In this document: in pieces, positions 239 to 39,597 of the stretch
Numbering within the stretch: position 1 is the stretch's first letter
Layout: the number at the start of each line of letters is the position of its first letter
NCBI GenBank assembly: GCA_963804955.1
Contig: CAWDSQ010000008.1
Coordinates: forward strand, 64,001-128,000
From: an uncultured delta proteobacterium
Lineage (GTDB): Bacteria; Desulfobacterota; WTBG01; CAIYCZ01; CAIRTM01
Direction: 5' to 3'
Length of the DNA stretch: 64,000 nucleotides
The notes under the pieces: model-generated
Told to the model about the DNA's origin: nothing
Databases searched by the model: none
Seen by the model: the letters and a program-made list of their open reading frames with translations, nothing else
Translations under genes and position numbers: made by a program

Positions 239-467
239 GGTTCAAATGTTCAAGGTTGTAGGGGCGAATGGCATTCGCCCTCTAGTTAGGAGTTGAGAGT
301 TCGGAGTTCGGAGTATAAAAACACCGTACTGCCGTTTCCATCTTCCCTCCCCTGGTGGGAGGAAAAATAAAGACGAACCCAGGGCAGGTTTGAAACCTGC
401 CCCTACGCACCCAACTCTGAACTCCCAACTCCGAACTTTCCCTGCGCTCCGAACTCCCTACTCCGAA
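239..467. repeat. Composite intergenic repeat: GGTTCAA units, GTAG-REP (259-284), AGTTCGG array, half CCCTCCCC palindrome, REP (381-406), inverted CCGAACT array
   Basis: Read directly; ~250-325 is near-identical to ~23880-23960. Confidence 0.9.
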
Positions 468-2086
468 CAGCCCTTCCTTCCGTTACCCAGCGGCAAATCA
501 ATCATGACTTTTGTAAATTCCCCGGACCTGCTCTCAAACAGGAGCCTGCCGCCGTGCTGCCTGATAATATTGTTGCTGATGCTCAGACCAAGCCCGGTGC
601 CCTGACCGGCGGGCTTGGTTGTGAAAAACGGGCTGCATATTTTTTCAAGAATCTCATCTGGTATGCCGCATCCCCTGTCATAAAACACCACCCGCAGGTA
701 TGAGCGTTCTTCATCTGCAACAGTCAGGCCGTATATCTCAAGAATTTTGTTTTCGCCGGCCGACGGGTACTTCATGTTCAGGGCAAACAAAGCATTGCTC
801 AGAATATTGATACATACCTGCTGGATTTTCTGCGCCTGCACGCATACCTCAGGCAATTCCGGCGGCAGATTTATAATGGTTTTTACGCTGCTTTCCAGAA
901 ACAGCTTCTGCAGCAGTGCGTATGATTCCTCGATGATTGTGTGTATGGCGCATGCTGATGATACTTCGCCTCCGCTGCGGACGAAGGTCAGCAGGCTTTT
1001 CACTATTTTTGCTATACGCTCGCTTTCTTTTATAATTCGCTGCGGCATTTCAATATCGCCGCCCTGCGCCTTGTTTCTGTTTACTATTATCTGGGCATAA
1101 TTGATGACTCCCATAATAGGGTTGTTGATCTCATGGGCCACTCCGGCGGCAATTTCGCCGATAGAGGCCAGCTGCGCAGACACGAGGGCTTCCTCTTCCA
1201 GGAGCTTTTTTTCGGTAATGTCGCTGAAACTTACACGAAGCCCGAGGTACTCGCCTTCATCAGAGTAAATAGGCTGATACGATGCGGTGACCCATTTTAT
1301 TTTGCGGCTTTTTGTTGAGATGCGGAATACGAAATCATCAGCATAGCTTTTTTCTTTAAGCGCTTTGTCAAAAACCGGCCGTATGTGTTCATAATCCTCA
1401 GGATGCACGATCTGCTGAAGATGATCCGGCAGCTTAAGGTACTCATCGGGGGTGTAGCCGGTTATGCGCAGCACCGCCGGGTTGGTCCAGACCATCTTGC
1501 CGTCGGGAGCAACCCAGGACTCCCAGTCATAGGAATAATCAGCAACCAGGCGGAAGCGCTCTTCGCTTTTGCGCAGGGCATTCTCCGCCAGCAGCCGCTC
1601 GTGAATCTCCTCGCGCAACAGGCCGACGGTTTTCTCAAGCTGCTGTGTCCGTTGCGCAACCCGGGCCTCAAGCTCGCTGTTGAGCTGCTCAAGGCGCTCC
1701 CGTATATTGCGCAGCTCGATATGTGTCCGCACCCGTTCCAGAACCTCTTTGGTCTGAAACGGTTTTGTTATATAATCTACGCCTCCGGCTTCAAAAGCCT
1801 TTATCTTCTCAGCTGCTTCCATCATCCCGCTGATGAATATCACCGGGATTGCGCGCGTCTGCTCCCGGGCCTTCAGCCGCCTGCACACTTCGTAGCCGTC
1901 CATCACCGGCATCTTTATGTCAAGCAGGATCAAATCCGGCGGCTCAACATCTATCGTCTTTAATGCGGCGGCCCCGCTTTTCACAGCCCGCACCTGATAC
2001 CCCTGAGCTATCAGCGACTCCGACAGCAGCTCCAGATTTGCCTCAGAGTCATCCACTATCAGTATGCTTTGCTCCGCCGTGTTCAT
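458..2086 (-). CDS. Hybrid sensor kinase REC-PAS-HisKA-HATPase (NtrB-like core)
   Basis: LIVDD/LLDIKMP receiver, PAS, H-box VAHEINNP, N box NILSNA, G2 GTGLGL; start MNTAEQ at 2086. Confidence 0.92.
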   Translation of the reverse strand: MNTAEQSILIVDDSEANLELLSESLIAQGYQVRAVKSGAAALKTIDVEPPDLILLDIKMPVMDGYEVCRRLKAREQTRAIPVIFISGMMEAAEKIKAFEAGGVDYITKPFQTKEVLERVRTHIELRNIRERLEQLNSELEARVAQRTQQLEKTVGLLREEIHERLLAENALRKSEERFRLVADYSYDWESWVAPDGKMVWTNPAVLRITGYTPDEYLKLPDHLQQIVHPEDYEHIRPVFDKALKEKSYADDFVFRISTKSRKIKWVTASYQPIYSDEGEYLGLRVSFSDITEKKLLEEEALVSAQLASIGEIAAGVAHEINNPIMGVINYAQIIVNRNKAQGGDIEMPQRIIKESERIAKIVKSLLTFVRSGGEVSSACAIHTIIEESYALLQKLFLESSVKTIINLPPELPEVCVQAQKIQQVCINILSNALFALNMKYPSAGENKILEIYGLTVADEERSYLRVVFYDRGCGIPDEILEKICSPFFTTKPAGQGTGLGLSISNNIIRQHGGRLLFESRSGEFTKVMIDLPLGNGRKGCSE

Positions 2087-2106
2087 CGATTTCACCTGTA
2101 GAAAAA

Positions 2107-2182
2107 GGTTCAAGGCCAAAGTTCAAGGTTTAAGGTTCAAGGTTTGAGGTTCAAGGTTTAAGGTTCAAGGTTTAAGGTTCAA
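2107..2182. repeat. Tandem heptamer array (GGTTCAA/GGTTTAA)n
   Basis: About 10 consecutive 7-bp units. Confidence 0.95.
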
Positions 2183-2268
2183 AGAAATCCCCCCACTTTA
2201 AATGGACTCGTTTTCAGCTATTTCATAAGTCCTGAAATTTTTCCATCTTGACTCTTTAATCACGAAAC

Positions 2269-2670
2269 CTACATATTTTTACCTGAACTCTTTTTTCCGT
2301 CTTCCCTCCCCTGGTGGGAGGGATTGAGGGAGGGGGCCAATAATCTGTTCCTAATAGCCTCCACTACCCCGTCAATATTTTCAAAGATGTCCGTATTCCA
2401 AAACCGGACAACCTCAAAGCCTTCCGATCTAAGCCAGTCATCCCGCCGTTTATCGCTTTCCATAGCTAGTGCATGCTGGCCGCCGTCAAGTTCTATGATC
2501 AATCCTTTTTCAAAACAGACAAAATCTGCAATATAATTCCCGATTTGCTGCTGCCGTCTGAATTTGAAAGCCTCCATCTGTTGCGCTCGCAGCCTGCTCC
2601 ACAGATACTTCTCTGCTTCAGTTGACTGCTGCCGCAGTTTTTTAGAAACAGATGCTAATCGCTTGATCAA
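2269..2670 (-). CDS. DUF559 (Vsr-like) endonuclease domain protein
   Basis: LR..STEAE..LW..LR, FRRQ..IG.YIADF.C, LIIELDGGQH, D..RD.WL...GF.V.RFWN motifs. Confidence 0.88.
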   Translation of the reverse strand: MIKRLASVSKKLRQQSTEAEKYLWSRLRAQQMEAFKFRRQQQIGNYIADFVCFEKGLIIELDGGQHALAMESDKRRDDWLRSEGFEVVRFWNTDIFENIDGVVEAIRNRLLAPSLNPSHQGREDGKKSSGKNM

Positions 2671-2711
2671 TCAGATCCCCCTCCCTCAATCCCTCCCACC
2701 AGGGGAGGGAA
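2302..2711. repeat. Perfect 35-bp inverted repeats (2302-2336 and 2677-2711) bracketing DUF559
   Basis: TTCCCTCCCCTGGTGGGAGGGATTGAGGGAGGGGG and its exact reverse complement. Confidence 0.95.
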
Positions 2712-2776
2712 AAAGAAAAAAGCCCTATATTAAAAATGTAACCATTTTGAACCTTCAACTTCTTCACTCCTCACTC

Positions 2777-3962: not shown

Positions 3963-4390
3963 AGTTCAGAGTTCAAGAAGTTCGGAGTTCAAAGTTCGGA
4001 GTTAAAAACACAACTACCGAAAGCGGGATTTTAACCGTTGAATATGTCTTCATCACTCAACGCTGAACTAGCTCCGAACTGTCTTATGTCTTTACTCCGA
4101 ACACCGAACTCTCTTCGCTTCTTGAGCCGAAACTGTCCCTTTCATATCTTGACTCCGAACTCCGAACTATCTCGTCTTTTCATCTCGAATCCGAACTGAT
4201 TCCTTGTCCATGTCTTCTGAATCGATCCGAATCTTCGAACTCCTTTCTGTTTTCATCTCGAATCTTGAATCCGGAATCTTGAATCTCCTTGTCCCTGCTT
4301 TCATCTTGAATCTTGAATCCACGGAACATCTTGAATCTCCTTGTCCTTGTTTTCATCTTGAATCTTGAATCCGGAATCTTGAATCTCCTT
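3963..4390. repeat. Heptamer arrays AGTTCGG / CCGAACT / TTGAATC with a ~46-bp higher-order repeat
   Basis: Direct reading; TCCTTGTCC..TTTCATCTTGAATCTTGAATCCGGAATCTTGAATC-like unit about 3x in 4240-4390. Confidence 0.9.
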
Positions 4391-7821: not shown

Positions 7822-7839
7822 GATACGCTCCCTTTGATT

Positions 7840-8040
7840 AAGTTCGGAGTTGGGAGCAATTAGTTCGGAGTTCGGAGTTGGGAGTTCGGAGAAAAAACAA
7901 ACCAAACTCATAACTCCGAACTTTATTAGTCCGAACTCCAAACGCCCACTCGAACTCCCTACTCCGAACTGTCTTATCTCCATGTTCCGAACACCGAACT
8001 CCTCACTCCGAACTAGCGGGCGTGGGCACCGCGCCCCTAC
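7840..8040. repeat. Inverted AGTTCGG/CCGAACT arrays plus GTAG-REP downstream of four-helix-bundle gene
   Basis: Direct reading; REP at 8017-8040 contains the stop codon. Confidence 0.9.
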
Positions 8041-8397
8041 TTCTTCAAAGAACTCATAAGCCCACTGAGCATTTTTGATAGTTCAGCACACCAATTCCTT
8101 GAGTAGTTCTCTGTTTTGACTATCCATAAAATGCTGCCTGTATGCTATCTCGGTTACAGCAACACATTCACGGGCTGAACGCCGTGAAATTTTTAAAAAC
8201 TGGTTGAATTCTGGTTTGCTCCCGCCGGTTCCTTCTGCAATATTTAAACAAATGGATATTGCAGCTCTTCTGAATTGATCCGTTAAAGAAAATGCTTCAG
8301 CCTTTGGAAAACCTTTTGTAATGGCATATACAAAATCAACATACTCCAGAGCCTTTTGATATACCTGCAACTCCTCAAAAGAAAATTTTTCTGCCAT
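8037..8397 (-). CDS. Four helix bundle protein (23S rRNA IVP / TIGR02436-like); 1-nt frameshift near 8090
   Basis: FEELQVYQKA, FPKAEAFSLTDQFRRAAISICLNIAEG, FLKISRRSARE; alternative frame gives the typical tail ELSKMLSGLMSSLKK*. Confidence 0.88.
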
Positions 8398-8419
8398 TTT
8401 TCACCTTTCTAATTTTGTC

Positions 8420-8533
8420 TCCCAACTCCGAACTCCCAACTGTCTTTAGGTCTCTGCTCCGAACTCCCAACTCCGAACTCTAAACTCCCAACTCCCGACT
8501 CCAAACTAGCGGGCGCGGGCACCGCGCCCCTAC
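8420..8533. repeat. CCGAACT/CCCAACT array plus GTAG-REP upstream of four-helix-bundle gene
   Basis: Direct reading; REP at 8509-8533 closely resembles that at 8017-8040. Confidence 0.9.
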
Positions 8534-8975
8534 TCCGGAAACCGGTTCCAGGCCAGCCAGTAGTAGCCGAATGCCTCCAGCAGCTGTGGTGAATTTTTCA
8601 AAATCGACAGGCTTCACCAGATAGCTGCAGGCGCCGTTGCTATAGGAATTGACCATGTCGGATTCCGCTCCTGATGTCGTGAGCACGACCGTCGGTATGT
8701 GTTTCAGATGGTCATCTTTCTTTATGCGGCGCAGCACTTCTAGTCCGTCTACTTTCGGCAGGCGCAAGATCAAGCAGAATAAGGTGCGGCATCGGATTGG
8801 CTGCCTGATCGGCATAGCCGTTCTGCCGGAACAGATAGTCAAGGGCTGCCTGCCCGTCTGTTACATGCACAATGCGGTTTGCTACGCGAAAGTCCTCAAG
8901 ATTTCGTCTGACGATTTCGGCATGCGCCATGTCATCTTCAACCAGCAGAATAATAATGGGGTCGCCTTTAACCAT
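8530..8975 (-). CDS. Single-domain response regulator (frameshifted)
   Basis: ILLVEDD, LILLDL, LPKVDGLEVL, IPTVVLTTS, YLVKP, tail GYYWLAWNRFPE* spread over three frames. Confidence 0.8.
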
Positions 8976-8999
8976 GAGAGGGTCTCCTTTTTGTTAATA

Positions 9000-9200
9000 G
9001 TTATGAGTTCTGAGTTCGGAGTTCAGAGTTAGAAATCAGAGTTCGGAGTTCGGAGTATTAAATCACACTTATCGTAAATCCGGAATTTTAAACCTTGCCT
9101 TATGTCTTCACTCCGAACTCCTTTATGTCTTAACTCCGAACACTCGCTTCGTACAGTCTTCATGTCTTCGAACTCCGAACTCCGAATCATGACTCCGAAC
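9000..9200. repeat. Inverted AGTTCGG / CCGAACT arrays
   Basis: Direct reading. Confidence 0.9.
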
Positions 9201-11537: not shown

Positions 11538-11619
11538 GATGCACCTTCTCGCATTTTTAAAGTTCAAGGTTAAAAGTTTAATCCGCCGCGGCGGAGCATA
11601 CGCCCCTTCCGCTTCCGTC

Positions 11620-11915
11620 TTCCCTCCCCTGGTGGGAGGGACCGAGGGAGGGGGCCTATAATCTTCAATGCTTTTGTCTTTCTTCCTGTATCTGAATACC
11701 ATTCTCCATCTTGAATTGATTTTAGGATTTTAATCCCCCTCCCTTTCATTCCCTCCCACCAGAGACTGTGTCGCAATTAACTTTGCTGTCATCTCGACCG
11801 AAGGGAGAGATCTTTGTAGTAAGTAAAATCAAGGGCTTAAGATTTCTCACCGCCTGCGGCGGATTCGAAATGACATTAATAAATCAATTGTGACACAGCC
11901 TCCCAAGGGGAGGGA
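11620..11915. repeat. Gene-less pair of DUF559-type palindromes; the right copy is interrupted by a MITE
   Basis: Same palindromes as 2302/2677; spacer similar to 18328-18400. Confidence 0.85.
11762..11902. mobile_element. MITE with 17-bp terminal inverted repeats containing an internal TGTCAT...ATGACA palindrome
   Basis: GAGACTGTGTCGCAATT ... AATTGTGACACAGCCTC (15/17 match); CCA on both flanks. Confidence 0.75.
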
Positions 11916-11924
11916 AAAATACAT

Positions 11925-12125
11925 CATGAATCTTGAATCTCTTCACTACCAACTCCGAACTGCCTTTTCGTCTTCACTCCGAACTCCCAACTCAAGGGCG
12001 GGAGAACCCCGCCCCTACGTTTTTAACCTTGAACCTTAAACGTTTTTTTCAACCTTGAACCTTGAACTGTTGAACCTTGAACTTCATTTTTCAACCTTTA
12101 ACTTTTTTCTTAACCATGAACCTCT
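11925..12125. repeat. TTGAATC, CCGAACT, REP (11995-12018) and TTGAACC arrays
   Basis: Direct reading; homologous to 16690-16885. Confidence 0.9.
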
Positions 12126-14560: not shown

Positions 14561-14615
14561 GGTGCTCACCTTCAAGGTTCAAGAAAAATCAATTCATGAT
14601 TTCTGATTCATGATT

Positions 14616-14684
14616 GATGCCGCCGTAAAAAGTCCCAGCGGTTGTCATGCAATGACAGTTTTTTTAACTTTTTACGACTTCATC
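14616..14684. mobile_element. 69-bp MITE with 18-bp imperfect terminal inverted repeats and a 6-bp target duplication
   Basis: GATGCCGCCGTAAAAAGT ... ACTTTTTACGACTTCATC flanked by ATGATT at 14610-14615 and 14685-14690. Confidence 0.8.
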
Positions 14685-14879
14685 ATGATTGAAAATAAAA
14701 ATAACTGATTTAGAACGTGGAATAGTTTAGCCTCTCTCAATTTTGAATTTTGAATCCGGAATTTTGAATCTTGAATTTTTTCTCCCTACTCCGAACTCAT
14801 GCCTCCGAACTATGGGATGCGGGCACCGCGCCCCTACTTCCCCTTGACATTTGCCGGTCATCTATCATATATAATAACC

Positions 14880-15131
14880 ATGCAGCTAAACATCGAAATC
14901 AAGACATCTCTGAAGCGTGAATACAGCTTGTGCACTCATGCTGTCGCCTTTTATAAAAAATCGCTGAGTGAATTTGAGCAAAAATATCATCTTACCACCT
15001 CGGCGTTTTTGAAGAAATTTGAGGCAGGCCGCATGGGTGATGAATCCGATTTCTTCGACTGGTACGCCTTCGCGAAGCTTCTCACCCGTTGGCAAAAAAC
15101 ACGCTCAACCATCCAGTCGACAGTACGATGA
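14880..15131 (+). CDS. Small protein, putative antitoxin
   Basis: 83 aa, FEQKYHLTTSAF..KFEAG.MGD..DFFDW; ATGA overlap with the next gene. Confidence 0.65.
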   Translation: MQLNIEIKTSLKREYSLCTHAVAFYKKSLSEFEQKYHLTTSAFLKKFEAGRMGDESDFFDWYAFAKLLTRWQKTRSTIQSTVR

Positions 15132-15505
15132 TACAAAGATTTGTTGCGCGTTTCGAACAAAGTATCACCTCACATCCCGTTGCTTTATCCTCAGACATCA
15201 AAAAATATTTCAGCCCGCATGATGATGCTGTATATATTCGTGGCGTCGTGCTTTTTACCGATGCTTCATCCCTTGAACTTTCACTTTTCATTCAAAAAAC
15301 AGGCCGTACGCTTTCTGTCGACAAGTACAGGTTCCATTATATGGATCGCCAGAACCGCATGATTTTCCGCTATGATAATGCCCCGCATCATCCCGATCTG
15401 ACCTCTTTTCCCCATCATAAGCACATAAGCAACCGTACAATTGCGGCCTCTTTTAAAGAACTGCCTGACATTCTTGAAGAAATCAGCGCAATTATTTTGC
15501 AATAA
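15128..15505 (+). CDS. DUF6516 / TumE-like toxin family protein
   Basis: KYRFHY...IFRYDNAPHH..L.SFPHHKH signature. Confidence 0.7.
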   Translation: MIQRFVARFEQSITSHPVALSSDIKKYFSPHDDAVYIRGVVLFTDASSLELSLFIQKTGRTLSVDKYRFHYMDRQNRMIFRYDNAPHHPDLTSFPHHKHISNRTIAASFKELPDILEEISAIILQ

Positions 15506-15509: not shown

Positions 15510-15710
15510 GGTTCAAGTTTTAAAAGTTCAAGGTTTTGTTTTTATTTTTTCAATATTGAACATTGAACCTTCCAACTTTGAACATCTTTTCTGTTTTCAA
15601 CATTGAACCTTAAACGTTTTTTTTAACCTTGAACCTTTGAACTTTGAACCTCTTTTTTGAACCTTGAACGTTTTTGCTTCGAACACCGAACTCATAACTC
15701 CGAACTATAG
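15510..15710. repeat. Inverted GGTTCAA/TTGAACC arrays plus CCGAACT units
   Basis: 15525-15610 is near-identical to 20705-20795. Confidence 0.9.
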
Positions 15711-16679: not shown

Positions 16680-16925
16680 ACCTCGAACTTCTTCACTACC
16701 AACTCCGAACTCATGACTCACAACTTTAGGGCACGGGCACCGTGCTACGCTCCCAACTCCGAACTGTCTTTACGTCTTCGCTCCGAACTCCGAACTCAGG
16801 GGCGGGACGACCCCGCCCCTACGTTTTAACCTTGAACCTTGAACTGTTGAACCTTGAACTTCATTTTTCAACCTTGAACCTTGAACGTTTTTTACTCCCC
16901 ACTCCGAACTCATGACTCCGAACTC
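16680..16925. repeat. CCGAACT and TTGAACC arrays with two REP-like hairpins
   Basis: Direct reading; REPs at ~16728-16748 and 16799-16822. Confidence 0.9.
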
Positions 16926-18202: not shown

Positions 18203-18605
18203 TAAGTTCCAGGGTTCAAAAAAAAAGATGTTCAAGGTTCAAAAAGTATTCTTAAATTTTGAATCCGTTTACTCCGAAATTTTTTCCGTCTTCCCTCCCC
18301 TTGTGGGAGGGACCGAGGGAGGGGGCCAATAATCTTCAATGCTTTTGTCTTTCTTCTTGTCTCATGAAGCAGCAATCCTGAATTGATTTTAAGATTTAAA
18401 TCCCCCTCCCTGTATCTTTCCAACCAGGGGAGAAAAAAATACATTTTGAATCTAGAATCCGGAATCCTGAATCTCTTCACTCCGAACACCCAACTCCGAA
18501 CCCAGGGCAGGTTTGAAACCTGCCCCAACACTCCGAACTCACAACTTTAGGGCACGGGAACCGTGCCCCTACGCTCCGAACTCCGAACTCATGACTCCGA
18601 ACTCT
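18203..18605. repeat. Composite repeat: GGTTCAA units, DUF559-type palindrome pair, TTGAATC, CCGAACT and two REPs
   Basis: Direct reading. Confidence 0.9.
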
Positions 18606-20661: not shown

Positions 20662-20805
20662 GGCTTTAAAACCTTAAAAAATTGTTCAAGGTTCAAAAGT
20701 TCAAAGTTCAAGGTTTTGTTTTTATTTTTTCAACATTGAACTTTGAACCTTCCAACTTTGAACATCTTTTCTATTTTCAGTATTGAACATTGAACCTTGA
20801 ACCTT

Positions 20806-22791
20806 CTAACCTTGAACCAGTTTGCCCGGCAAACTGAACCAAAAACAAGCCCCTTTGCCGAGGCCCTCCGACTCAACCCAAATCCTGCCGCCGTGCAGTT
20901 CAACAATACGCTTCACCAGCGCAAGACCCATGCCCGAACCTTCGATCTCAGGGTGAAGTTTTTCAAACAGTTCAAACAGCTTGTGCGTATGCTGTGGGTC
21001 GATGCCAATGCCGTTATCGCGCACAAAGCATGCAATCTCGCCATTCCTTATTTCAGCACCTATTTCAATAAGCGGCTCGGTTTGCTCTCCCATGAACTTA
21101 GCGGCATTATCAATAAGATTCTGAAAAACCTCCGCCAGCCGCACCCGGTCGCCATAGAGCAGCACCGCCTCTTGTGTTACCTGTACCCGCACTCCCCGCT
21201 GATCAATGCGTCCAGCCACCAGGGCCAGCGCCTCCCGCACGATTTCCTGCAGCGGCGTTTCAACCGATGGGTTCATTACGCGTCCGAGGCGCGACAAATG
21301 CAGCAGCTCATCCAGCAGCTGACCCATTTTCGCCGTGGCAGTATGTATATACTGCAGGTCCCGGGCTATGTTCTCAGTGTCGCCGCGCGACAGGTCATCG
21401 GCAAGGTGGCCCATAAAAGTCCTGATTGTCACCAGCGGGCTTCTCAAATCATGCGAAACAGTGTAGGTAAAGCGTTCCAGCTCGGCGTTTTTTTCCTGCA
21501 AGGCCTGTTCCGCGAGTTTTCGCTCGGTGATATCCAGCAAAAGGGCTGCGGAGTTTAAGAGCTTGCCGTTTTCGCCGTAGTTAAAAATGCTGCAGTCATG
21601 AATATGGCGTATTTCTCCGCCCGGGCGTATGATCCGGTACTCAAGCTCGACCAGGGATCGCTCGTCGTTGAAGCCGTTCCAGGCCTTGACAAGGGCCGGA
21701 TAATCCTCCGGGTGCACGCAACGGGTAAATTCGGAAAAAAGCATGGGACTGCCGACCGGCAGGCCAAGAATGCGGTAGATTTCATCGGACCACCGGTAGT
21801 GTCCTGTTTCGGGATTATAAGTCCAGGTGCCCAAATGGGCTATCTGCCGGGCTTCGGCCAGAAGGCTTTCGGTTTCAAGCAGGGCCGCTTCCACCCTTTT
21901 GCGCTCGGCAAGCTCCAGCTTCAAAGCCTCCTCTGCACGCTTGCGCTGGGTGATGTCGACCACAGCGCCGATGAGCCCGGCCGTGCGGCCGCCCGGGCCG
22001 GGAAATGCAGCCTTATGGAAAACCACATCGTGAACCGCACCCCGGACGTCCCTGACCTGCGACTCATAAACCTGAAGTCCGGAATGCTGCAGCAGTTCAA
22101 GATCCTTTGCGTGATAGACCCGGGCCAGCTCATCATCTGCGATATCGAACACGCTTTTGCCGATAAGGTCCTGACGGGCGCACCCATAGAATTCTTCAAA
22201 GGCCCTGTTGCATCCCAGGTAGCGCGCGTCAAGGTCCTTGTAGAACACCGGCAGCGGAATGGCATTGAGCAGCGCTTCTATGAAAATACTGCTCTGCCGA
22301 AGCCCATCCTCAGCCTTTTTGCGATCGTAGATTTCCTTCAGCAGCAGCTCATTTGCAAGCCGCAAATCGGCTGCCTGATGTTTGAACCTGTTGCGCAGCC
22401 GGCGCAGCTCCAGATGGGTGTGAACGCGGGCAAGCAATTCCTCTGGCTCAAACGGTTTGACAATATAATCGACAGCTCCCAGCTTAAAACCATCGATTCT
22501 CTTTCCTGTTTCCGTGAAACCGCTGAGGAAAATGACCGCAATGTCCCGGCATTCGGGCCGCGCCTGGAGTTGTCTCAAGACCGAAAACCCGTCCATATCC
22601 GGCAAGTTTATATCAAGCAGAATCAATTCCGGCGACAGGGTTTCTACTGCACCAAGAGCCTGCTTGCCGCTGTCGGCGCAGTGCACATGATAGCCCTGCT
22701 GAGACAGTATATGCTCCAGCATAGCCAGTGACGATTCATCATCGTCGACAACAAGAATAGCGCCGGTATCGTTTGTCGTCTTTTTTTCCAT
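20806..22791 (-). CDS. Hybrid kinase REC-PAS-PAS-HisKA-HATPase
   Basis: ILVVDD/LLDINLP, two PAS, TVSHDLRSP, HATPase. Confidence 0.92.
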   Translation of the reverse strand: MEKKTTNDTGAILVVDDDESSLAMLEHILSQQGYHVHCADSGKQALGAVETLSPELILLDINLPDMDGFSVLRQLQARPECRDIAVIFLSGFTETGKRIDGFKLGAVDYIVKPFEPEELLARVHTHLELRRLRNRFKHQAADLRLANELLLKEIYDRKKAEDGLRQSSIFIEALLNAIPLPVFYKDLDARYLGCNRAFEEFYGCARQDLIGKSVFDIADDELARVYHAKDLELLQHSGLQVYESQVRDVRGAVHDVVFHKAAFPGPGGRTAGLIGAVVDITQRKRAEEALKLELAERKRVEAALLETESLLAEARQIAHLGTWTYNPETGHYRWSDEIYRILGLPVGSPMLFSEFTRCVHPEDYPALVKAWNGFNDERSLVELEYRIIRPGGEIRHIHDCSIFNYGENGKLLNSAALLLDITERKLAEQALQEKNAELERFTYTVSHDLRSPLVTIRTFMGHLADDLSRGDTENIARDLQYIHTATAKMGQLLDELLHLSRLGRVMNPSVETPLQEIVREALALVAGRIDQRGVRVQVTQEAVLLYGDRVRLAEVFQNLIDNAAKFMGEQTEPLIEIGAEIRNGEIACFVRDNGIGIDPQHTHKLFELFEKLHPEIEGSGMGLALVKRIVELHGGRIWVESEGLGKGACFWFSLPGKLVQG

Positions 22792-23837: not shown

Positions 23838-24110
23838 AAGGGCCTTAAAAAAGTTCAGGGTTCAAGGTTCAAGGTTTAAGGTTTAAGGTTGTAGGGGCGA
23901 ATGGCATTCGCCCTCTAGTTCGGAGTTGAGAGTTCGGAGTTCGGAGTATAAAAACACCGAACTTCTCTTTCCGTCTTCCCTCCCCTTGTGGGAGGACCGA
24001 GGGAGGGGGCCAATAAATGATTTCTGATAGTATCCATAACCCCGTCAATATTTAAAACCCAGGGCAGACACGCAGGTCTGCCCTTGCGATTTCGAATCAT
24101 GAATCATGAA

Positions 24111-25163
24111 TTAAATGCCTGCTATGCGCAACGCCTCCCGGGCCGAACCTGCATAAAAGTCAGCGCCGACAAGCTTTGCCAGGCCGGCGTCACGGTTGAA
24201 GCCGAAACCGCCGACAATGATTTTTGTCGGCCGGGTATCCGAGGCCCGCACCTTTTCGATAATTTTTTCTACCTTATTGACGCTTGAGGCCATTGCCGCG
24301 GATATGCCCAGAATATCGGCTTTCTTTTCAAGCAGCGTGTCGACGATGTTATAGGCGGGCATATTGGCGCCCAGATAGCACACATTCCAGCCTTCCATTT
24401 CAAATAAATCAGCCACCATTCGCATGCCGATTTCATGCAGCTCGCCGCTGACGCATATGCCGACCATGGCGCCGCCCTTTTTTTCTGCATTGCAGATATG
24501 CGGGTAGTACAGCTGCGACATGATGAGCTGCGTAACGGCGCTGCAAAAATGCTCCTGCGCAACCGTGATTTTATTTGTCTGCCAGAGGCGGCCTATTTCA
24601 TACTGCACGGGCTGCAGGACATTGATATAGATATCCTGTATGGGCATGCCTGCTTGAAAGCTGTCCATCACCAGCCGGGTCGCGGCGGCGCGATCACCCA
24701 GCAGCACGGCATCGAGATACCGCTGTGCAAGCTCTCCCTGCGGCGACTGCGGGTCGATAAATGAGCAGGGTGCTTCCAGCGGGCCGCTTATTTCAGACCT
24801 GCCCGCCTGCATATAGCTGGAAATTATCTCGTGGGTTTCCGGGGGAAGCGCCGCCAGCAGCCCCGCCCTGACAAGCTCGACATTTTTTTCAAGCACGTCA
24901 AGCGCAATGCCATTGCTGCTGAACATTGATTTTGTCCAGTCGATATATTCGGTAAACAGGCCCGGGTTTTTTTCCGCAATCGCATTGGCAAGATAGGAAA
25001 GCTCATAATGGGTGTATTCCAGCAGCTTTTCCGGCTCTACGCCGAACCGGTCAAACATCCCCTGCAGTGCGCCGTATCTGCTCCGGGCGATTTCCCGGGA
25101 AAGGGCGTCCTGCGAGGCAAGTATCAGGGAGCTGACTTTCTGCTCGTCAATGTGTGCGGCCAT
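24111..25163 (-). CDS. Cobalamin-binding protein (CarH-type B12 module) with an N-terminal helical domain
   Basis: W-x9-EH (WQTNKITVAQEH), ExH (ELHEIG), YLGANMP, IIVGG. Confidence 0.88.
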   Translation of the reverse strand: MAAHIDEQKVSSLILASQDALSREIARSRYGALQGMFDRFGVEPEKLLEYTHYELSYLANAIAEKNPGLFTEYIDWTKSMFSSNGIALDVLEKNVELVRAGLLAALPPETHEIISSYMQAGRSEISGPLEAPCSFIDPQSPQGELAQRYLDAVLLGDRAAATRLVMDSFQAGMPIQDIYINVLQPVQYEIGRLWQTNKITVAQEHFCSAVTQLIMSQLYYPHICNAEKKGGAMVGICVSGELHEIGMRMVADLFEMEGWNVCYLGANMPAYNIVDTLLEKKADILGISAAMASSVNKVEKIIEKVRASDTRPTKIIVGGFGFNRDAGLAKLVGADFYAGSAREALRIAGI

Positions 25164-25187: not shown

Positions 25188-25560
25188 TGATTCAAAATTC
25201 CGGATTCAAGATTCAAGATAAAAGTCAAGATTCAAAATGTTGAACATGTTTGCCATCCCCAGTGTTGAGGGTTCGACCCTTCTTGATCTTCATCTTGAAT
25301 CTTGAATCAGCAATCTTGAATTAGATTTTTTAGGATTTAAATCCCCCTCCCTTTCATTCCTCCCACCAGGGGAGGGTAAAATTAACTTTGCTGCACCTCG
25401 GGCCGGCGGTAGAGATCCTGCCCGTAATTAAAATTAAGAATCGTTTTCAACTCGGGATTTGAATCATCAATAACCTTGAACACAGTTTCCAGGGAACGTT
25501 ACATTTTGAATCTTCACTCCGAAAGTCTTGAATCTCTCACTCCGAACTCTGAACTCATGC
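25188..25560. repeat. Inverted GATTCAA/TTGAATC arrays, DUF559-type palindrome, CCGAACT units
   Basis: Direct reading. Confidence 0.85.
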
Positions 25561-28130: not shown

Positions 28131-28223
28131 TTGCCTTCCCCTGAAGGGGTTATTGATTGGGAGTTGGGATTGGGAGTTCAGAGTTCGAATAGGGTAAAAA
28201 CATTTCCGTTAAATTAGTGATTT

Positions 28224-28940
28224 TTATCTGAATCCGAAATGTTGAATCTTCTTTCTTAAACATTTCCGGATAGAGTTTCCGCGCGCATTCGGGGCAGATG
28301 CCGTGCCTGAATTCAGCCTCGAGTGCTCGACTATGTATTTCTCGATTCTGTTCCAGTAGCCGTCATCATCCCTGATTTTTTTGCAGTTGCTGCAAATAGG
28401 GATCATGCCCTTCAGTGTCCGTATGTTTTCCAGTGCCCCTTGCAATTCCAGAATCAGATTTTCCCTGTCCTGCTCGGCTTGTTTGCGCTCAGTAATTTCA
28501 TGCTGGAGTTGTTGATTGGCAAGCCGTAAATCAGCAGCCTGCTGTTCAAAACTATCACGCAGCCGGCTGAGCGACAGGTGTGTCTGCACCCGTGCCAGCA
28601 ATTCTTCACGCTGAAACGGTTTGGTGATAAAGTCAACGGCGCCAAGCTTCAAGCCCTTGACCCGCTGCGCCATTTCCGTAAGCCCACTGAGGAAAATAAC
28701 GGGGATGTCCCGGGTTGCCTGCTCCGCTTTGAGCCGCTGCAAAACCTCAAACCCATCCATATCCGGCATGCAGATGTCCAGCAGTATCAATTCCGGGGAG
28801 AGGCAGCTGCACAGACCAGCGCCAGTTGCCCCGTTGTCTACGGGGCGCACCTGATAGCCTTCGCTCAACAGGATATGCGTCAACAGATCCAGTGACTCCC
28901 TTGTGTCGTCAACAACCAGAATGCTGCCTTTGCCGATCAT
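28224..28940 (-). CDS. Response regulator with C-terminal Cys/His domain (IPICSNCKKIRDD...HGICPEC); frameshifts, end approximate
   Basis: Receiver motifs; GGAGG SD before MIGKG; HGICPECARKLYPE in the shifted frame near 28300. Confidence 0.8.
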   Translation of the reverse strand: MIGKGSILVVDDTRESLDLLTHILLSEGYQVRPVDNGATGAGLCSCLSPELILLDICMPDMDGFEVLQRLKAEQATRDIPVIFLSGLTEMAQRVKGLKLGAVDFITKPFQREELLARVQTHLSLSRLRDSFEQQAADLRLANQQLQHEITERKQAEQDRENLILELQGALENIRTLKGMIPICSNCKKIRDDDGYWNRIEKYIVEHSRLNSGTASAPNARGNSIRKCLRKKIQHFGFR

Positions 28941-29322: not shown

Positions 29323-29945
29323 AGTTCAGAGTCCTGTGTTCGGAGTTCAGAGCGTAGGGGCACGGTGCCCGCCCCTGAGTTCGGTGTTCGGAGTATGAAA
29401 TTCAAGATTTCCGGATTCAAGATTCAAAATAATTTTCCCCCCTCGTGGGAGGGAATGAAAGGGAGGGGGATTGAATTTAAAATCAATTCAGGATTGCACT
29501 CTCAACAAAAAACGGCATTCAGTAATCTGTGGTTTTTACAAATCTTCGCTTAACCTTGGAGCGCAGCCCGTTCTTGTTTGGGTGGGACGCAGCGCATTTG
29601 TTTAGCACTTTAGATTGCTGATTCATGCTACATGAAGAAAAAAAAAGCATGAAGATTATTGGCCCAGGCAGGCTCGGGAGAGATCTTTGTAGTAAGTAAA
29701 ATCAATGGCTTAAGATTGATGCGCGGGAACCTAGAATTAAATATAGATTCATGATTCAAAATTTAAGTTAAATGGGGGAGGAGTGAAGAGATTCAAAATT
29801 CAACATTGAGGATGGCAAACATATTCCACGGTTTAAATCAGTGAATTTTATCCTGAATCCATCCGGAATCAATTTATTCATCTTGAATCAGCAATCTTGA
29901 ATTGATTAAAAAATTGTAGGGGCAAACCTGTGTTGGTTTGCCCCA
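29323..29945. repeat. Large composite repeat block (heptamers, REPs, DUF559-type palindrome, MITE-internal fragment)
   Basis: Direct reading; 29677-29717 matches 11803-11843. Confidence 0.85.
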
Positions 29946-34454: not shown

Positions 34455-34775
34455 GTTAGAGGTTCAAAAGTTCAAGGTGCAAGTGGTCACCGGCGGATGC
34501 TCCGGCATCTCCGCCTTCCTCGCCTGATGGGAGGACCCGAGGGAGAGGGAATTAAATTTTTCAATGATTCAAGATTGCTGATTCAAGAAGAATAATTTAA
34601 GATTCCGGATTCAGATTTCAAGATAAGATTCACTGATTTAACGGTGGATATGTTTGCCACCTCAATGTTGAATTTTGAACTTTCTTGTCTTCGTCTTGAA
34701 TCTAGATTATGAATTTTGAATCTTACTGCTTTCCATCTTCAATCTTGAATCTTGAATCAGCAATCTGGAATCTCA
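34455..34775. repeat. Inverted GATTCAA/TTGAATC arrays with conserved loop; degenerate DUF559-type palindrome
   Basis: Direct reading. Confidence 0.85.
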
Positions 34776-37700: not shown

Positions 37701-39359
37701 GCCGGTGAGCGACCAGAGCAGCATCAGCGCACCGCTGAGCAGCCCCGCGGCAAGCGCCAAGATTCAGACAACAGCCGCGCTGCGGGTGGCTCGGCTTCTG
37801 CGGTTATATCCCGCATGATGATGAGCGATGCGACCTGCGCGGCCTGCGGCATCAGGCAGATGAATGATGCCGCAGGTAAACCATTTGCCTCCCTGCCGGG
37901 CGGAAAAACTGTTGCTAGAGGGAACCGCGCTAAAATCTTGCGCCAGCAAGCGGCCCACCTCATCGGGCAGGCCGCGTCTGTCTGGTAGGGTGCTACTACA
38001 AGGGGATAGTCGTTCCAGCGGCCGGAGAAGCCGAAAGTCTTCCGGGCAGGCCTCGAAGTGCTTCGCGGTTGTAAAAGTCTTTCCGAACGACAGGTAGCAA
38101 TTCGTTGTTCATATCGCGCGGCCAGCTGCTCCGTCATATGCTCGATTTCCATGCCCAGTTCAAGGTAGCCTGATAAGCTTGCCCTGAAGGCGGACGGGCG
38201 AACATACCGCAGCGTAAAAGATCCCAGTGGCCCCGCTCAGATTCCCCAGGCATCAGCGTCCGTTGCTGCGCCGTTACCAGGGTGAAACGCTCGATACGGT
38301 CGCCTCGCCGGTCGGGCTGATGGGCTCGCAGGAAGCAGGTTCGATCGGGCTCTATGAAGTAACAGTGGTGTTATCGTATGATTTTCCTTAAGGAGCAAAT
38401 GCCGGCTGCGCCAGGCGTAAGGGCTGTCAGATCGCGGGTCTGAAAGCCTTCAGCAAATCAGCGTTGCTTTCATAGGTCGATCTGTCGCTTTCAGAAGCTG
38501 ACATTTGAGTCGATGCTGCGGTTCAGTCTGCTTCTGGCCTGGTCCAGCATGGCGATCATGTTGCGATGTGGCATCTGCTTGAATTCGCGGTGGCCATAGA
38601 ATGAGATAAGCAGTACTGCCGCCAGTATAACCAGAGCAGCGGGCATGATGATCCAGCGCCTGAGCTTGAGCCTGTCGGGAGTAATGTTCCGGTTGCGGCG
38701 GTGTATGATAAAAGCCCCGGAGGCAAGCAACAAGCAGCAGCGCTACGAGTCATCAGGACGGGATTGCGGCGTACGGCGGTCAGTCGGGCGTGCCAGTCTG
38801 CGGCCGGCACATCAATACCGACTACCATCAACACGCTGCCGCTATTCGGGGATCAAGCACCGGGGTCAAGGCTGAAATAAAGACGCCGTATTTATCAGTG
38901 TAGGGCCGACCGCGGCAGGTTTTCCGGTTTGCAGCACCTGCCAGCTTTCAGGGGTGGGCTTATCGTACACCGCTCCGGGCGGGCTGGCCATGGGGTCGCT
39001 TTCGGGATAGCTTTCCGGGCCGAACACTATTTTGCCATTGCGCACCGCCATGCTGTAAATACCGCGCTGCGAGCCGGTTTTGCCTGCAGCGATCATCTGT
39101 TGGCGGATATGTTCAAAAGCAGGAGGCCTTTGTCGGCTGCGGTGAAGGTAAGCTTGCGGGCAAGCTCCGGGTTGATGGTTCGGCTGATGTCGTCAACCTG
39201 CCTGAGCAAGTGCTCACGCATTTCGGCGTCAAGGCGTCTGGCAGCGGTTTCACCTGCCCACCAGCCAAAGGCAAGCAGCAGCCCAAGCAGCGCCGACATG
39301 AGCAGAGCATAGAGTACGTTTCTGCCGGCGAACCATTTTTTTGTCTGCGTGTCGGGCAT
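34776..39359 (-). CDS. Large membrane hybrid kinase (TM/periplasmic-PAS x3-HisKA-HATPase-REC-REC), heavily frameshifted
   Basis: Fragments include [12 protein letters not shown] (35734-36519), GGTGLGL (35628-35963) and REC (34776-35273). Confidence 0.7.
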
Positions 39360-39597
39360 GAGGATGCTCTTTAAACAAATTCAAAATTCAGGATTCAATA
39401 ATGTATTTTCATTGTTCATGGTTTTTAATTAATGGTTAATGCCTGATTAACCCTCCTGATCCCTCCCACCGGAGGATCAGAACAAATTCTAGGCATACTC
39501 CGGTGAACCCCAACGTTTTTAACCTTGAACTTTTAACCTGAACTGCTCCTAACTCCGAACTCCACGGGGCATGACGCGCCTCTCCAACTTCCGCCCG

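What the first reader, a model, noticed from the sequence alone, without database searches (positions are those of the whole stretch)
239..39565. Modular intergenic repeat system: heptamer-armed cassettes between nearly every gene of a 40-kb operon-like array
Seen: almost every gap (~240, 2100, 3960, 7840, 8420, 9000, 11560-12125, 14575, 15510, 16680, 18200, 20680, 22830, 23850, 25190, 28160, 29320, 34455, 39380) is built from the same parts. Where both arms are present, G-rich heptamer arrays come first and their reverse complements second. GTAG-REP hairpins, CCCTCCCC palindromes and MITEs are interleaved. Three gaps carry a small cargo gene. These families were not seen in gaps from 44 to 63 kb. 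Inference: a community of non-autonomous elements and their small helper genes colonises gene junctions, folds into long mRNA stems, and may segment, stabilise or process the transcript or seed recombination. I do not know a description of this as one system.
Basis: partly seen in the sequence, partly recalled or inferred. Interest (0 to 1): 0.85.

Follow-up and report, generated by a model that had tools for sequence, protein, structure and literature searches.

The report
Heptamer-armed hairpin cassettes between signalling genes
Most gaps in a 40-kb row of bacterial signalling genes are filled with hairpin-forming DNA built from 7-base repeats, with other tiny mobile elements nested inside, and these hairpins look like gene-less relatives of the intervening sequences that interrupt ribosomal RNA genes.

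Summary
39 of the genome's 318 period-7 tandem arrays lie in window 1-40 kb (3 expected), and 18 of 27 gaps carry them.

It is not one system. It is a layered community of four parts:
- **Heptamer-armed hairpins.** Units are GGAGTTC, AAGGTTC and AAGATTC. The purine-rich arm always comes first (16 of 16 pairs genome-wide).
- **A DUF559 gene between 45-nt inverted repeats**, plus its gene-less derivatives.
- **A 138-nt MITE.**
- **GTAG-headed REP-like hairpins.**

One hairpin carries a PF05635 ("23S rRNA intervening-sequence protein") gene. In relatives, 13 of 30 PF05635 loci have the same purine-arm / gene / pyrimidine-arm layout. This scan has noted that gene-plus-arms cassette before on other DNA (145 notes).

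This window adds several points:
- Gene-less hairpins sit at consecutive junctions of the signalling array.
- Another genus carries them at orthologous junctions.
- The heptamer can change at a fixed site between species.
- Purine-rich arrays follow stop codons and pyrimidine-rich arrays precede start codons.
- Some gene ends are overwritten by repeat units.

RNase III cutting of the stems, as shown for rRNA intervening sequences, is my inferred mechanism. It is untested because no RNA data were found.

The parts
239..470 (.). Full mirrored cassette. AAGGTTC-type purine run 245-258; GTAG-headed hairpin from 258; GGAGTTC-type purine run 289-315; half of a DUF559-element inverted repeat 344-362; hairpin ending CCCCTAC at 400-406; pyrimidine runs (CCGAACT type) 410-465.
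   Evidence: RNA fold of 153-457 gives z = -6.4. Bases 237-363 are 91% identical to 23871-23996.
2105..2184 (.). AAGGTTC array of 9-11 units. In mRNA sense it reads (GAACCTT)n and ends ~20 nt before the start codon of the kinase gene 458-2086.
   Evidence: This single-arm gap does not fold above shuffles (z = +2.5).
2270..2735 (-). DUF559 element. Gene 2269-2670(-) lies between ~45-nt inverted repeats (2292-2336 and 2677-2721, 93% complementary).
   Evidence: Pfam PF04480, E = 2e-39. Inverted repeat. Second copy at C31:1151-1571, 90% over 421 nt in another context.
3963..4389 (.). Purine run 3977-3998. CCGAACT runs 4093-4169. TTGAATC runs 4255-4387 arranged with 27/52-nt super-periods.
   Evidence: Fold z = -1.5.
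7840..8041 (.). GGAGTTC-type purine arm 7840-7892. Pyrimidine runs 7928-8010. GC hairpin ending CCCCTAC at 8034-8040.
   Evidence: 7835-7975 folds at -63.7 kcal/mol, z = -7.9.
8083..8397 (-). PF05635 / TIGR02436 four-helix-bundle gene ('23S rRNA intervening-sequence protein'). It lies between the purine arm at 7840-7892 and the pyrimidine arm at 8419-8496.
   Evidence: Pfam E = 2.4e-28. NCBIfam TIGR02436 E = 1.4e-25. The flanks 7930-8041 and 8420-8534 are 73.5% identical direct repeats.
8419..8534 (.). Pyrimidine arm (CTCCCAA/CTCCGAA units) 8419-8496, plus a GC hairpin ending CCCCTAC at 8527-8533.
   Evidence: A related strain's contig has this array 59 nt shorter (joint 8430 to 8490).
8999..9187 (.). 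Simple hairpin cassette. Purine runs 9004-9057, pyrimidine runs 9109-9187.
   Evidence: Fold of 8976-9186 gives z = -5.0.
11559..12125 (.). Most complex gap.
- AAGGTTC run 11559-11574.
- Gene-less DUF559-element derivative 11613-11760.
- 138-nt MITE 11763-11900, nested in that derivative's repeat.
- TTGAATC run 11923-11941.
- CCGAACT runs 11949-11993.
- GC hairpin ending CCCCTAC at 12012-12018.
- GAACCTT runs 12022-12084.
   Evidence: Fold z = -13.3. A related strain has one extra AAAGTTT unit behind 11572.
14570..14779 (.). AAGGTTC run 14570-14585, a palindromic core, and TTGAATT/TTGAATC runs 14739-14779.
   Evidence: Fold z = -2.3.
14799..15505 (+). TumA-like antitoxin (14799-15131) and TumE toxin (15089-15505), on the strand opposite to the array. 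They count as 'cargo' only in the sense of lying between two repeat-filled gaps.
   Evidence: Pfam PF20126 E = 3e-23. NCBIfam TumE and TumA, both below the curated cut-offs. 90% identical DNA in G004.
15523..15701 (.). AAGGTTC run, then several GAACCTT runs, then CCGAACT runs. 86% identical to 20689-20818 although the flanking genes differ.
   Evidence: Fold z = -3.3.
16699..16889 (.). Pyrimidine half only: CCGAACT runs, two GC hairpins (CCCCTAC at 16816) and GAACCTT runs.
   Evidence: Fold z = -1.5.
18228..18591 (.). AAGGTTC run; gene-less DUF559-element derivative 18284-18411; TTGAATC and CCGAACT runs; two GC hairpins (CCCCTAC at 18566).
   Evidence: Fold z = -5.0.
20683..20806 (.). Cleanest hairpin. 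Purine arm 20683-20716, A-rich loop in mRNA sense, pyrimidine arms 20732-20806. In mRNA sense a U6 run follows, then the start codon.
   Evidence: ~35-bp stem, -42.1 kcal/mol, z = -6.0.
23850..24111 (.). AAGGTTC array of 6 units; GTAG hairpin from 23891; GGAGTTC run 23922-23948; remnant of the DUF559 element including ~45 nt of its coding end 23959-24053; GC hairpin; GAATCAT run.
   Evidence: Fold z = -4.3.
25189..25557 (.). GATTCAA purine runs 25202-25238; TTGAATC runs; part of a DUF559-element repeat 25313-25369; TTGAATC and CCGAACT runs to 25557.
   Evidence: Fold z = -4.3.
28155..28251 (.). Short purine run (GGAGTTC type) followed by a TTGAATC run.
29336..29922 (.). Purine-half modules only: GGAGTTC runs, two GTAG hairpins (29354, 29916), GATTCAA runs, and inverted pieces of the DUF559-element repeat and of the 138-nt MITE.
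34467..34759 (.). AAGGTTC and GATTCAA purine runs, then TTGAATC pyrimidine runs.
   Evidence: Fold z = -4.5.
39377..39564 (.). AAATTCA/GGATTCA purine run, then GAACCTT and CCGAACT runs. This is the last cassette of the region.
   Evidence: Fold z = -0.4.

Best explanation
The gaps of this co-oriented histidine-kinase / response-regulator array are occupied by hairpin cassettes whose two arms are inverted arrays of 7-nt units. All units here have the form RRRRTTC: GGAGTTC, AAGGTTC, AAGATTC. These are the same kind of cassette that elsewhere, and once here, encloses a PF05635 gene. That makes them the mRNA-junction counterpart of ORF-bearing 23S rRNA intervening sequences. Most copies here are gene-less.

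Other small elements have lodged in these hairpins: a DUF559-nuclease gene between 45-nt inverted repeats with its deletion derivatives, a 138-nt MITE, and GTAG-headed REP-like hairpins. Insertion into the middle of an existing hairpin pushes older arms outward. That would give the mirrored layering: AAGGTTC array, GTAG hairpin, GGAGTTC array, core, CCGAACT array, CTAC hairpin, GAACCTT array.

Arrays change by unit slippage. The local excess comes partly from duplication of the paralogous kinase genes together with their flanks, and partly from later spread or conversion between junctions.

In the transcript each cassette spans the whole intercistronic space. The purine arm starts at or inside the upstream stop codon. 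The pyrimidine arm ends 10-40 nt before the next start codon. The cassette should fold into a 20-35-bp stem.

Inferred, not shown: RNase III cuts these stems, as it does in rRNA intervening sequences, so the array's transcripts are segmented at every junction. Some stems with a following U-run may also terminate transcription.
For: Structure and excess. 39 of 318 genome period-7 arrays lie in 40 kb. Module map.

Polarity.
- 16 purine-first against 0 pyrimidine-first inverted array pairs, 8 of them outside the window and with other heptamers.
- All 6 of the 124 cross-phylum AGTTCGG loci that also hold at least 2 CCGAACT units have them downstream.
- Outside the window, arrays nearest a stop codon are purine-rich in mRNA sense 41:16. 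Arrays nearest a start codon are pyrimidine-rich 29:13. Fisher p = 8.5e-5, using crude ORF calls.

Link to PF05635.
- 3 of 4 copies in this genome have arrays within 100 bp on both sides, each with a different heptamer.
- In 30 loci from relatives, 15 have arrays on both sides. 13 are purine-left and pyrimidine-right, 0 reversed. 10 are complementary within 1 mismatch.
- Array density is 4.6/kb within 160 bp of the gene against 0.55/kb further out.

Persistence.
- Genome G010, of another genus, has a B12-domain protein 70% identical. It carries purine-then-pyrimidine runs of the same three unit types at six consecutive junctions of its kinase/regulator array. The B12-gene/kinase junction is shared with the window.

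Turnover at a fixed site.
- At junction C14:52616, G000 and G003 carry a 182-nt GGAGTTC/AAGGTTC hairpin. G001 (47 nt) and G002 (90 nt) carry hairpins of a different heptamer at the same place.
- At C25 the older CTTCTGAC units remain outside the newer arms.

Slippage. A 7-nt unit gain and a 59-nt array difference appear in related strains.

Overwritten gene ends. Three kinase paralogs end ...PRKSSES*, encoded by AGTTCGG units.

Folding..

DUF559 element and its derivatives..

MITE. 26 copies of at least 110 nt, several 98-100% identical.

Precedent for the mechanism. In the Coxiella 23S intervening sequence, tandem heptamers precede the S23p ORF, their number varies between strains, and RNase III cuts in the stem at the first repeat (PMC4990558, abstract and passages). 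An RNase III gene is present in this genome.
Against: - No RNA data, so processing, termination and co-transcription are all untested.
- The simple terminator scan found no excess: 26 sites against 22.9 +/- 5.5 in shuffles.
- AAGGTTC and AAGATTC arms have no PF05635 partner in this 87%-complete assembly.
- One of the 4 PF05635 copies (C6:12946) has no arrays. 15 of 30 loci in relatives lack arrays on both sides.
- G015 has many GGAGTTC arrays, but its only PF05635 match above Pfam's cut-off is truncated and holds a stop.
- PF05635 copy number does not track RRRRTTC array number across 31 genomes. So the gene is not shown to be a helper.
- No target-site duplications or empty sites were found. 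Every orthologous junction examined already held some hairpin, so insertion is inferred, not seen.
- Paralogous kinases at 68-76% nucleotide identity share the first repeat units after the stop codon. Part of the local excess is therefore plain co-duplication.
- Gaps with one arm only do not fold above shuffles.
Confidence: 0.55

Rival explanations
1. Passive by-product. Heptanucleotide simple-sequence repeats arise by polymerase slippage in intergenic DNA. They were multiplied here only because the kinase/regulator genes were tandemly duplicated with their flanks. The hairpin arrangement is maintained by quasi-palindrome correction. There is no mobility and no function.
For: - Heptamer repeats are the over-represented long repeat class in many bacteria (passages in PMC4679880 and PMC4692102).
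- Unit gain and loss occur between strains.
- Paralogous kinase genes share their repeat-encoded tails.
- Unit types form a single-step mutational network, and arrays are mixed.
Against: - Slippage alone does not predict the strict purine-first polarity (16:0; 13:0 around PF05635 genes).
- It does not predict gap-to-gap identities of 86-91% that exceed those of the flanking paralogous genes at 68-76%, in some cases between non-paralogous flanks.
- It does not predict the replacement of one heptamer by another at a fixed junction between species.
- It does not predict the 8-fold array density next to PF05635 genes.
Confidence: 0.2
2. Host-selected regulatory device. The hairpins are intercistronic control elements of the signalling array: terminators or attenuators, mRNA stabilisers like REP/BIME, or translational controls. 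In the last case, purine units (GGAG, AAGG) mimic Shine-Dalgarno sites and pyrimidine units (CUCC, CCUU) mimic the anti-Shine-Dalgarno sequence. Selection on gene expression, not selfish spread, keeps them.
For: - Positional conservation across genera at six consecutive junctions.
- Pyrimidine arm ends 10-40 nt before start codons, with U-runs after the stem at about 5 of 9 junctions read by eye.
- Genome-wide rule of purine-rich after stops and pyrimidine-rich before starts.
- A translational role was proposed for TAACTGA repeats just upstream of start codons in Beggiatoaceae (PMC4679880 abstract).
Against: - The same hairpins flank unrelated housekeeping genes in convergent, divergent and co-directional pairs.
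- Unit identity and length are not conserved at orthologous sites.
- Many gaps keep only one arm.
- The terminator scan is not enriched.
- The polarity rule follows automatically from the purine-first build of the element in any gene context, so it does not by itself show selection on mRNA.
Confidence: 0.15
3. One integrated system. Heptamer arms, GTAG hairpins, CCCTCCCC palindromes, MITEs and the small genes (PF05635, DUF559, RAYT, GIY-YIG) are parts of a single cooperating machinery.
For: - They co-occur in the same gaps.
- GTAG hairpins are polar with the arms (12 of 12).
- A cyanobacterial locus (L028) also shows GGAGTTC arrays with GTAGGGGCGGGG hairpins.
Against: - The families have separate genome-wide distributions and separate gene-bearing counterparts.
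- Most heptamer hairpins elsewhere lack the other parts.
- RAYT and GIY-YIG genes lie on other contigs and are not near the window's repeats.
Confidence: 0.05
4. Assembly artefact of a repeat-rich, long-read or binned assembly.
For: The window has probable 1-nt indel errors. Positions 8583 and 8768 differ by one base in contigs of all 4 runs laid, inside a response-regulator gene that reads as frameshifted.
Against: - Independent metagenome contigs contain the arrays and bridge gene, array and gene.
- The same architecture is present in separately assembled genomes G003, G004, G010 and G015.
Confidence: 0.02

Closest known systems
ORF-bearing intervening sequences (IVS) of 23S rRNA, such as the Coxiella burnetii helix-45 IVS with its S23p/PF05635 ORF (PMC4990558; abstract and passages read)
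   Same: - A PF05635 gene sits in the loop of a long stem formed by terminal inverted repeats.
- Tandem heptamers lie at the 5' side of the ORF.
- Heptamer copy number varies between strains.
- The stem is an RNase III substrate in that system.
   Different: - Here the cassettes lie between protein-coding genes, not in rRNA.
- Most are gene-less.
- Both arms are long heptamer arrays.
- Several unit types are layered in one gap.
- RNase III cutting is not shown here.
Intergenic heptanucleotide repeats: TAACTGA repeats of Beggiatoaceae, Cyanobacteria and Bacteroidetes (PMC4679880; abstract and passages); GGGAATC / GGGGAYT repeats of Xanthomonas and Nostoc (PMC4692102; passages); STRR heptamers of Calothrix (recalled; also mentioned in PMC4692102)
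   Same: - 7-nt tandem units.
- Almost exclusively intergenic.
- Close to gene ends.
- Variable in length between relatives.
- The same unit is found in distant phyla. Exact (AGTTCGG)x3 occurs in at least 124 loci of many phyla.
- Units are likewise purine-run plus pyrimidine-run.
   Different: - Those papers describe direct repeats. MacGregor reports one inverted set among 170.
- Here the arrays come as inverted arms with a fixed purine-first polarity, layered unit types and nested elements.
- A link to PF05635 genes is not made in the passages I read.
REP / BIME mosaics and REPIN-RAYT pairs of Proteobacteria (BIME recalled; REPIN paper PMC3116915 seen only as a search listing)
   Same: - Intergenic mosaics of short palindromes in defined relative orientation.
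- GTAG-headed GC-rich hairpins.
- A Y1 (HUH) transposase gene is present in the genome.
- The classical proposed roles are mRNA stabilisation and termination.
   Different: - The dominant module here is a heptamer array, not a REP.
- The GTAG hairpins have variable stems.
- A REP-flanked RAYT gene was not demonstrated.
MITEs derived from gene-bearing parents, and nested small repeats in cyanobacteria (Elhai et al. 2008, Genome Research; recalled only, not held in the library)
   Same: - Gene-less derivatives keep the terminal inverted repeats of a gene-bearing element.
- Small elements are inserted into heptamer arrays and into each other.
   Different: - The parent here carries a DUF559 (PD-(D/E)XK-type) nuclease gene rather than a known transposase.
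- Its derivatives are almost confined to one 40-kb region.

Membership tests
IVS-type PF05635 cassette | Encodes a PF05635 / TIGR02436 four-helix-bundle protein | tested here: met
   Met for one cassette: 8083-8397(-), E = 2.4e-28 and TIGR02436 E = 1.4e-25. The other cassettes in the window are gene-less.
IVS-type PF05635 cassette | Gene enclosed by complementary inverted arms able to form a long stem | tested here: met
   Purine arm 7840-7892 and pyrimidine arm 8419-8496. An extra copy of the pyrimidine arm plus hairpin lies at 7930-8041. The same layout is seen at C1 and C6 and in 13 of 30 loci of relatives.
IVS-type PF05635 cassette | Located inside a 23S rRNA gene | tested here: not met
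   Rfam finds no rRNA or any other family in the window. The cassettes lie between protein-coding genes.
IVS-type PF05635 cassette | Excised from the transcript by RNase III | not testable with these tools
   No RNA run was listed. An RNase III gene is present. Stems of 20-35 bp are predicted.
Heptanucleotide simple-sequence repeats (STRR-like) | Head-to-tail 7-nt units, mainly intergenic | tested here: met
   39 period-7 arrays in 1-40 kb, 34 of them outside gene models.
Heptanucleotide simple-sequence repeats (STRR-like) | Copy number varies between close relatives | tested here: met
   A 7-nt unit gain at 11572 and a 59-nt difference at 8430-8490 in related strains' contigs. Arrays differ at orthologous junctions.
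REP / REPIN with RAYT | Conserved 5' GTAG followed by a GC-rich palindrome, in many copies | tested here: inconclusive
   GTAGGGGC occurs 178 times in the genome, 12 in the window. The hairpins are visible, but their stems vary. My strict census found only 52 genome-wide and missed most window copies.
REP / REPIN with RAYT | A RAYT gene flanked by its REPs | tested here: inconclusive
   A Y1_Tnp gene at C30:145770-146471 has an HUH-like HVHLV motif. One GTAG hairpin lies ~0.5 kb upstream and none was seen downstream.
MITE | Short, terminal inverted repeats, multi-copy, no coding capacity | tested here: met
   The 138-nt element at 11763-11900 has 26 copies of at least 110 nt, several 98-100% identical. 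DUF559-element derivatives are at 11613-11760 and 18284-18411, plus fragments.
MITE | Target-site duplication, and a parent that encodes a transposase | tested here: not met
   No duplication is evident at the two full DUF559 elements. The parent encodes a DUF559 nuclease-fold protein, not a known transposase.
Intrinsic terminators | GC-rich stem followed by a U-run, in excess over chance | tested here: inconclusive
   The consensus scan gives 26 sites against 22.9 +/- 5.5 in shuffles, but it only allows loops of 3-8 nt. U-runs follow the pyrimidine arm at about 5 of 9 junctions read by eye.

The most novel reading that the evidence does not exclude
Heptamer-armed hairpins are a widespread, undescribed class of RNA-level 'punctuation' elements. 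They would be relatives of rRNA intervening sequences that settle at cistron boundaries and are cut out or cut open by RNase III. On this reading they propagate with a fixed purine-arm / pyrimidine-arm polarity, and the pentameric PF05635 protein recognises or copies its own heptamer. In lineages like this one they would come to define every junction of a gene array and overwrite gene ends. This would tie together three old puzzles: bacterial heptamer repeats, rRNA intervening sequences and the PF05635 family.
Probability: 0.17. Interest if true: 0.85.

Novelty: new variant of a known kind. Interest (0 to 1): 0.6.

Why it matters
Heptanucleotide repeats have been reported as the over-represented long repeat class in bacterial genomes. 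Their phyletic scatter has had no mechanism; MacGregor 2015 says so explicitly in the abstract.

This region shows them in a defined architecture:
- inverted arms with a fixed polarity;
- occupying whole intercistronic spaces;
- conserved in position but not in sequence across genera;
- of the same build as the stems around PF05635 genes and rRNA intervening sequences.

That turns a descriptive oddity into testable claims: RNase III cutting at junction stems, heptamer binding by PF05635 protein, and insertion into existing hairpins. It also matters for annotation. Gene ends and spurious ORFs in such regions are made of repeat units, and short-read assemblies of relatives appear to break at these junctions.

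Tried and rejected
- **Rfam.** The gathering-threshold search on the whole window and the E <= 1 search on 1-40 kb gave no match.
- **Promoter/terminator scan on 1-20 kb.** No excess over shuffles. The scan cannot see long-loop stems.
- **RNA evidence.** No RNA holder was listed for 7000-12500. The four runs laid are DNA contigs of related strains.
- **First folding script.** I repeated it with fewer shuffles and only gaps up to 600 nt, so the 998-nt gap 29067-30064 and the 940-nt gap 37989-38928 were not folded.
- **PF05635 count against RRRRTTC arrays.** No relation in 31 genomes. Other lineages use other units.
- **Strict GTAG-hairpin census** (perfect 7-nt complement). Too strict to be useful: 52 genome-wide, 2 in the window.
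- **Empty sites.** At the three orthologous junctions compared (C14, C25, C7), every species held some hairpin, so no insertion boundary or target duplication could be defined.
- **Association with two-component genes in general.** Rejected. Elsewhere the hairpins flank Fe-S, radical-SAM, phosphorylase, tRNA-ligase, carbamoyl-phosphate-synthase and dehydrogenase genes.
- **Literature.** Searches found no description of heptamer-armed cassettes at gene junctions, and no PF05635-heptamer link beyond the Coxiella intervening sequence. The library holds open-access papers only. Elhai et al. 2008 could not be read.
- **Taxonomy.** Not established. Earlier notes call the genome Desulfobacterota-type, and I did not check this.

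Full report
**Setting.** The window is contig C8:64001-128000 of a 4.26-Mb, 36-contig, 87%-complete genome. Bases 1 to about 29,000 hold a co-oriented (minus-strand) row of histidine kinases, hybrid kinases, response regulators, a GGDEF regulator and a B12-binding-domain protein. More PAS/kinase genes follow to about 40 kb (Pfam). Three small genes interrupt the row: DUF559 (2269-2670), PF05635 (8083-8397) and a TumA/TumE pair on the opposite strand (14799-15505).

- Tandem Repeats Finder gives 318 period-7 arrays in the genome. 39 lie in window 1-40 kb (3.0 expected) and 1 in 40-64 kb. 34 of the 39 lie outside my rough gene models.
- Diagnostic 8-mers are 7- to 35-fold enriched.
- A unit-level map finds runs in 18 of 27 gaps.
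- The units are GGAGTTC, AAGGTTC and AAGATTC, all of the form RRRRTTC. In the 31 related genomes searched, this vocabulary occurs mainly in this genus and one other.

**A grammar.**
- In every gap with both arm types, the purine-rich arrays come first and their complements second. Genome-wide the count is 16:0, half of it outside the window and with other heptamers.
- Because the arrangement reads the same on both strands, it has one consequence in any gene context. In mRNA sense, purine arrays follow stop codons and pyrimidine arrays precede start codons. With crude ORF calls outside the window this holds 41:16 and 29:13 (p = 8.5e-5).
- GTAG hairpins share the polarity: 12 of 12.
- The full layout is mirrored: AAGGTTC array, GTAG hairpin, GGAGTTC array, core, CCGAACT array, CTAC hairpin, GAACCTT array. 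Many gaps keep only part of it.
- The purine arm can begin inside the upstream gene. Three kinase paralogs end ...PRKSSES*, and others end ...VQG* or ...CSE*, all encoded by repeat units.
- The pyrimidine arm ends 10-40 nt before the next start codon.

**Folding.** As RNA in gene sense, 10 of 16 module-bearing gaps fold with z <= -4 and 12 of 16 with z <= -2. None of 10 control gaps reaches -2. Gaps with one arm only do not stand out. The cleanest junction, 20655-20800, forms a ~35-bp stem with an A-rich loop and a U6 tail.

**What the parts are.**
- *CCCTCCCC palindromes.* They are the ~45-nt inverted repeats of a ~440-nt element that carries the DUF559 gene. A second full copy lies on contig C31, 90% identical in an unrelated context. 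Five or six gene-less derivatives all lie in the window. One still keeps ~45 nt of the coding end.
- *138-nt MITE (11763-11900).* It has 26 copies of at least 110 nt, several 98-100% identical, and here it sits inside a DUF559-element repeat.
- *PF05635 gene.* It lies between a purine arm and a pyrimidine arm. The same is true at two of the three other copies in this genome, each with its own heptamer. In relatives, 15 of 30 loci have arrays on both sides, 13 in the purine-left / pyrimidine-right order and none reversed, and 10 are complementary within one mismatch. Array density is 8-fold higher next to the gene. I reached this before consulting the scan's notes. The notes show the same cassette was reported 145 times on other genomes.

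**History.**
- Genome G010, of another genus, has a B12-domain protein 70% identical. It carries purine-then-pyrimidine runs of the same three unit types at six consecutive junctions of its array, including the orthologous B12-gene/kinase junction.
- G004, of the same genus, has several such arrays on short contigs that tend to end at the repeats.
- At three junctions elsewhere in the genome, every species compared has some hairpin, but unit type and length differ. At C14, two species have a 182-nt GGAGTTC/AAGGTTC hairpin. Two others have 47- and 90-nt hairpins of CAGAATT/GCTTCTG units at the same place. At C25, older CTTCTGAC units remain outside newer arms. That fits insertion into, or conversion of, existing hairpins, and it would produce the mirrored layers.
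- Related strains differ by one 7-nt unit and by a 59-nt array stretch.
- The kinase genes are paralogs at 68-76% nucleotide identity that share their first flanking units. Several gap-to-gap matches are 86-91%, between junctions whose genes are not the matching paralogs. So both co-duplication and later spread contribute to the local excess.

**Mechanism.**
- *Shown:* the architecture, the polarity, the predicted stems, the variability, and the kinship of the arms with PF05635 cassettes.
- *From the literature:* in the Coxiella 23S intervening sequence, a PF05635-family ORF sits in a stem-loop. Tandem heptamers precede it and vary in number between strains. RNase III cuts in the stem at the first repeat (PMC4990558).
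- *Inferred:* the junction stems here are RNase III substrates, so the array's transcripts are cut at each junction. An RNase III gene is present. Some stems with U-runs may also terminate.
- *Untested:* whether PF05635 protein acts on the arms. G015 has many arrays, but its only PF05635 match above Pfam's cut-off is truncated and holds a stop. Across 31 genomes, PF05635 copy number does not track RRRRTTC array number.

**Comparison and verdict.** The closest known things are four:
- ORF-bearing rRNA intervening sequences;
- intergenic heptamer repeats (TAACTGA, GGGAATC, STRR);
- REP/BIME mosaics;
- MITEs.

None of the papers I could search describes inverted heptamer arms at gene junctions, their polarity, or their layering (searches; open-access library only). 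I rate it a new variant of known kinds, of fairly high interest. The functional claim remains open.

Noticed in passing
window 9187-9210, 16910-16935, 18589-18610; also 20806-20830 and 458-480: The last 3-5 codons and the stop codon of several kinase genes are made of heptamer units. Three paralogs end with the identical ...FTLPRKSSES*. The repeat has overwritten or supplied the gene end.
   Followed up: partly
window 8480-8975 and 9187-10176: A response-regulator gene and a kinase gene read as frameshifted fragments. Contigs of all four metagenome runs laid lack one base at 8583 and at 8768. So these may be assembly indels or a strain-specific pseudogene.
   Followed up: partly
window 1572-2088 vs 3423-3939, and 10638-11006 vs 13895-14263: Recent internal duplications or conversions between neighbouring signalling genes: 99% over 517 nt and 95% over 369 nt. 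Two hybrid kinases share an identical receiver-domain start.
   Followed up: no
G000 C30:144800-145290: A ~140-nt composite unit (TTGAATC runs plus CCGAACT runs plus a spacer) is itself tandemly repeated three times. It lies ~0.5 kb upstream of a Y1 (HUH) transposase gene at C30:145770-146471, and a GTAG hairpin follows it.
   Followed up: partly
G000 C30:16750-17900: A small GIY-YIG gene is flanked on both sides by tandem 21-nt TCGGTCGAGATGAC-type repeats and hairpins. These share a ~25-nt module with the window's 138-nt MITE.
   Followed up: partly
L028 (Calothrix MAG), L018 and L078 (Thermoanaerobaculia MAG), L080 (Gemmataceae MAG): The exact unit AGTTCGG recurs in distant phyla. In Calothrix it is interleaved with GTAGGGGCGGGG hairpins. 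In the Acidobacteria loci it forms long inverted arms. In the planctomycete it is a compact stem plus T-run between what I read by eye as a kinase gene end and a regulator gene start.
   Followed up: partly
window 29267-29307: Direct 15-nt repeats (GGCACAAACCGTGTC type) lie beside a very AT-rich stretch at 29200-29260, upstream of the regulator gene 28224-29066. This may be a regulator-binding or promoter region at the head of the array.
   Followed up: no
window 44089-47787: Large minus-strand ORFs contain 69-nt and 312-nt tandem repeats (TRF scores up to 915). These are repeat-domain proteins unrelated to the finding.
   Followed up: no
window 18232-18531 and 390-605: ORFs of 99 and 71 aa lie wholly inside repeat-filled gaps and have no Pfam match. 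They are likely spurious reading frames created by the repeats.
   Followed up: no
relatives G001-G030: PF05635 genes are multi-copy across this class, up to 15 matches per genome. Many sit within a few hundred bases of contig ends, which suggests the cassettes break short-read assemblies.
   Followed up: no
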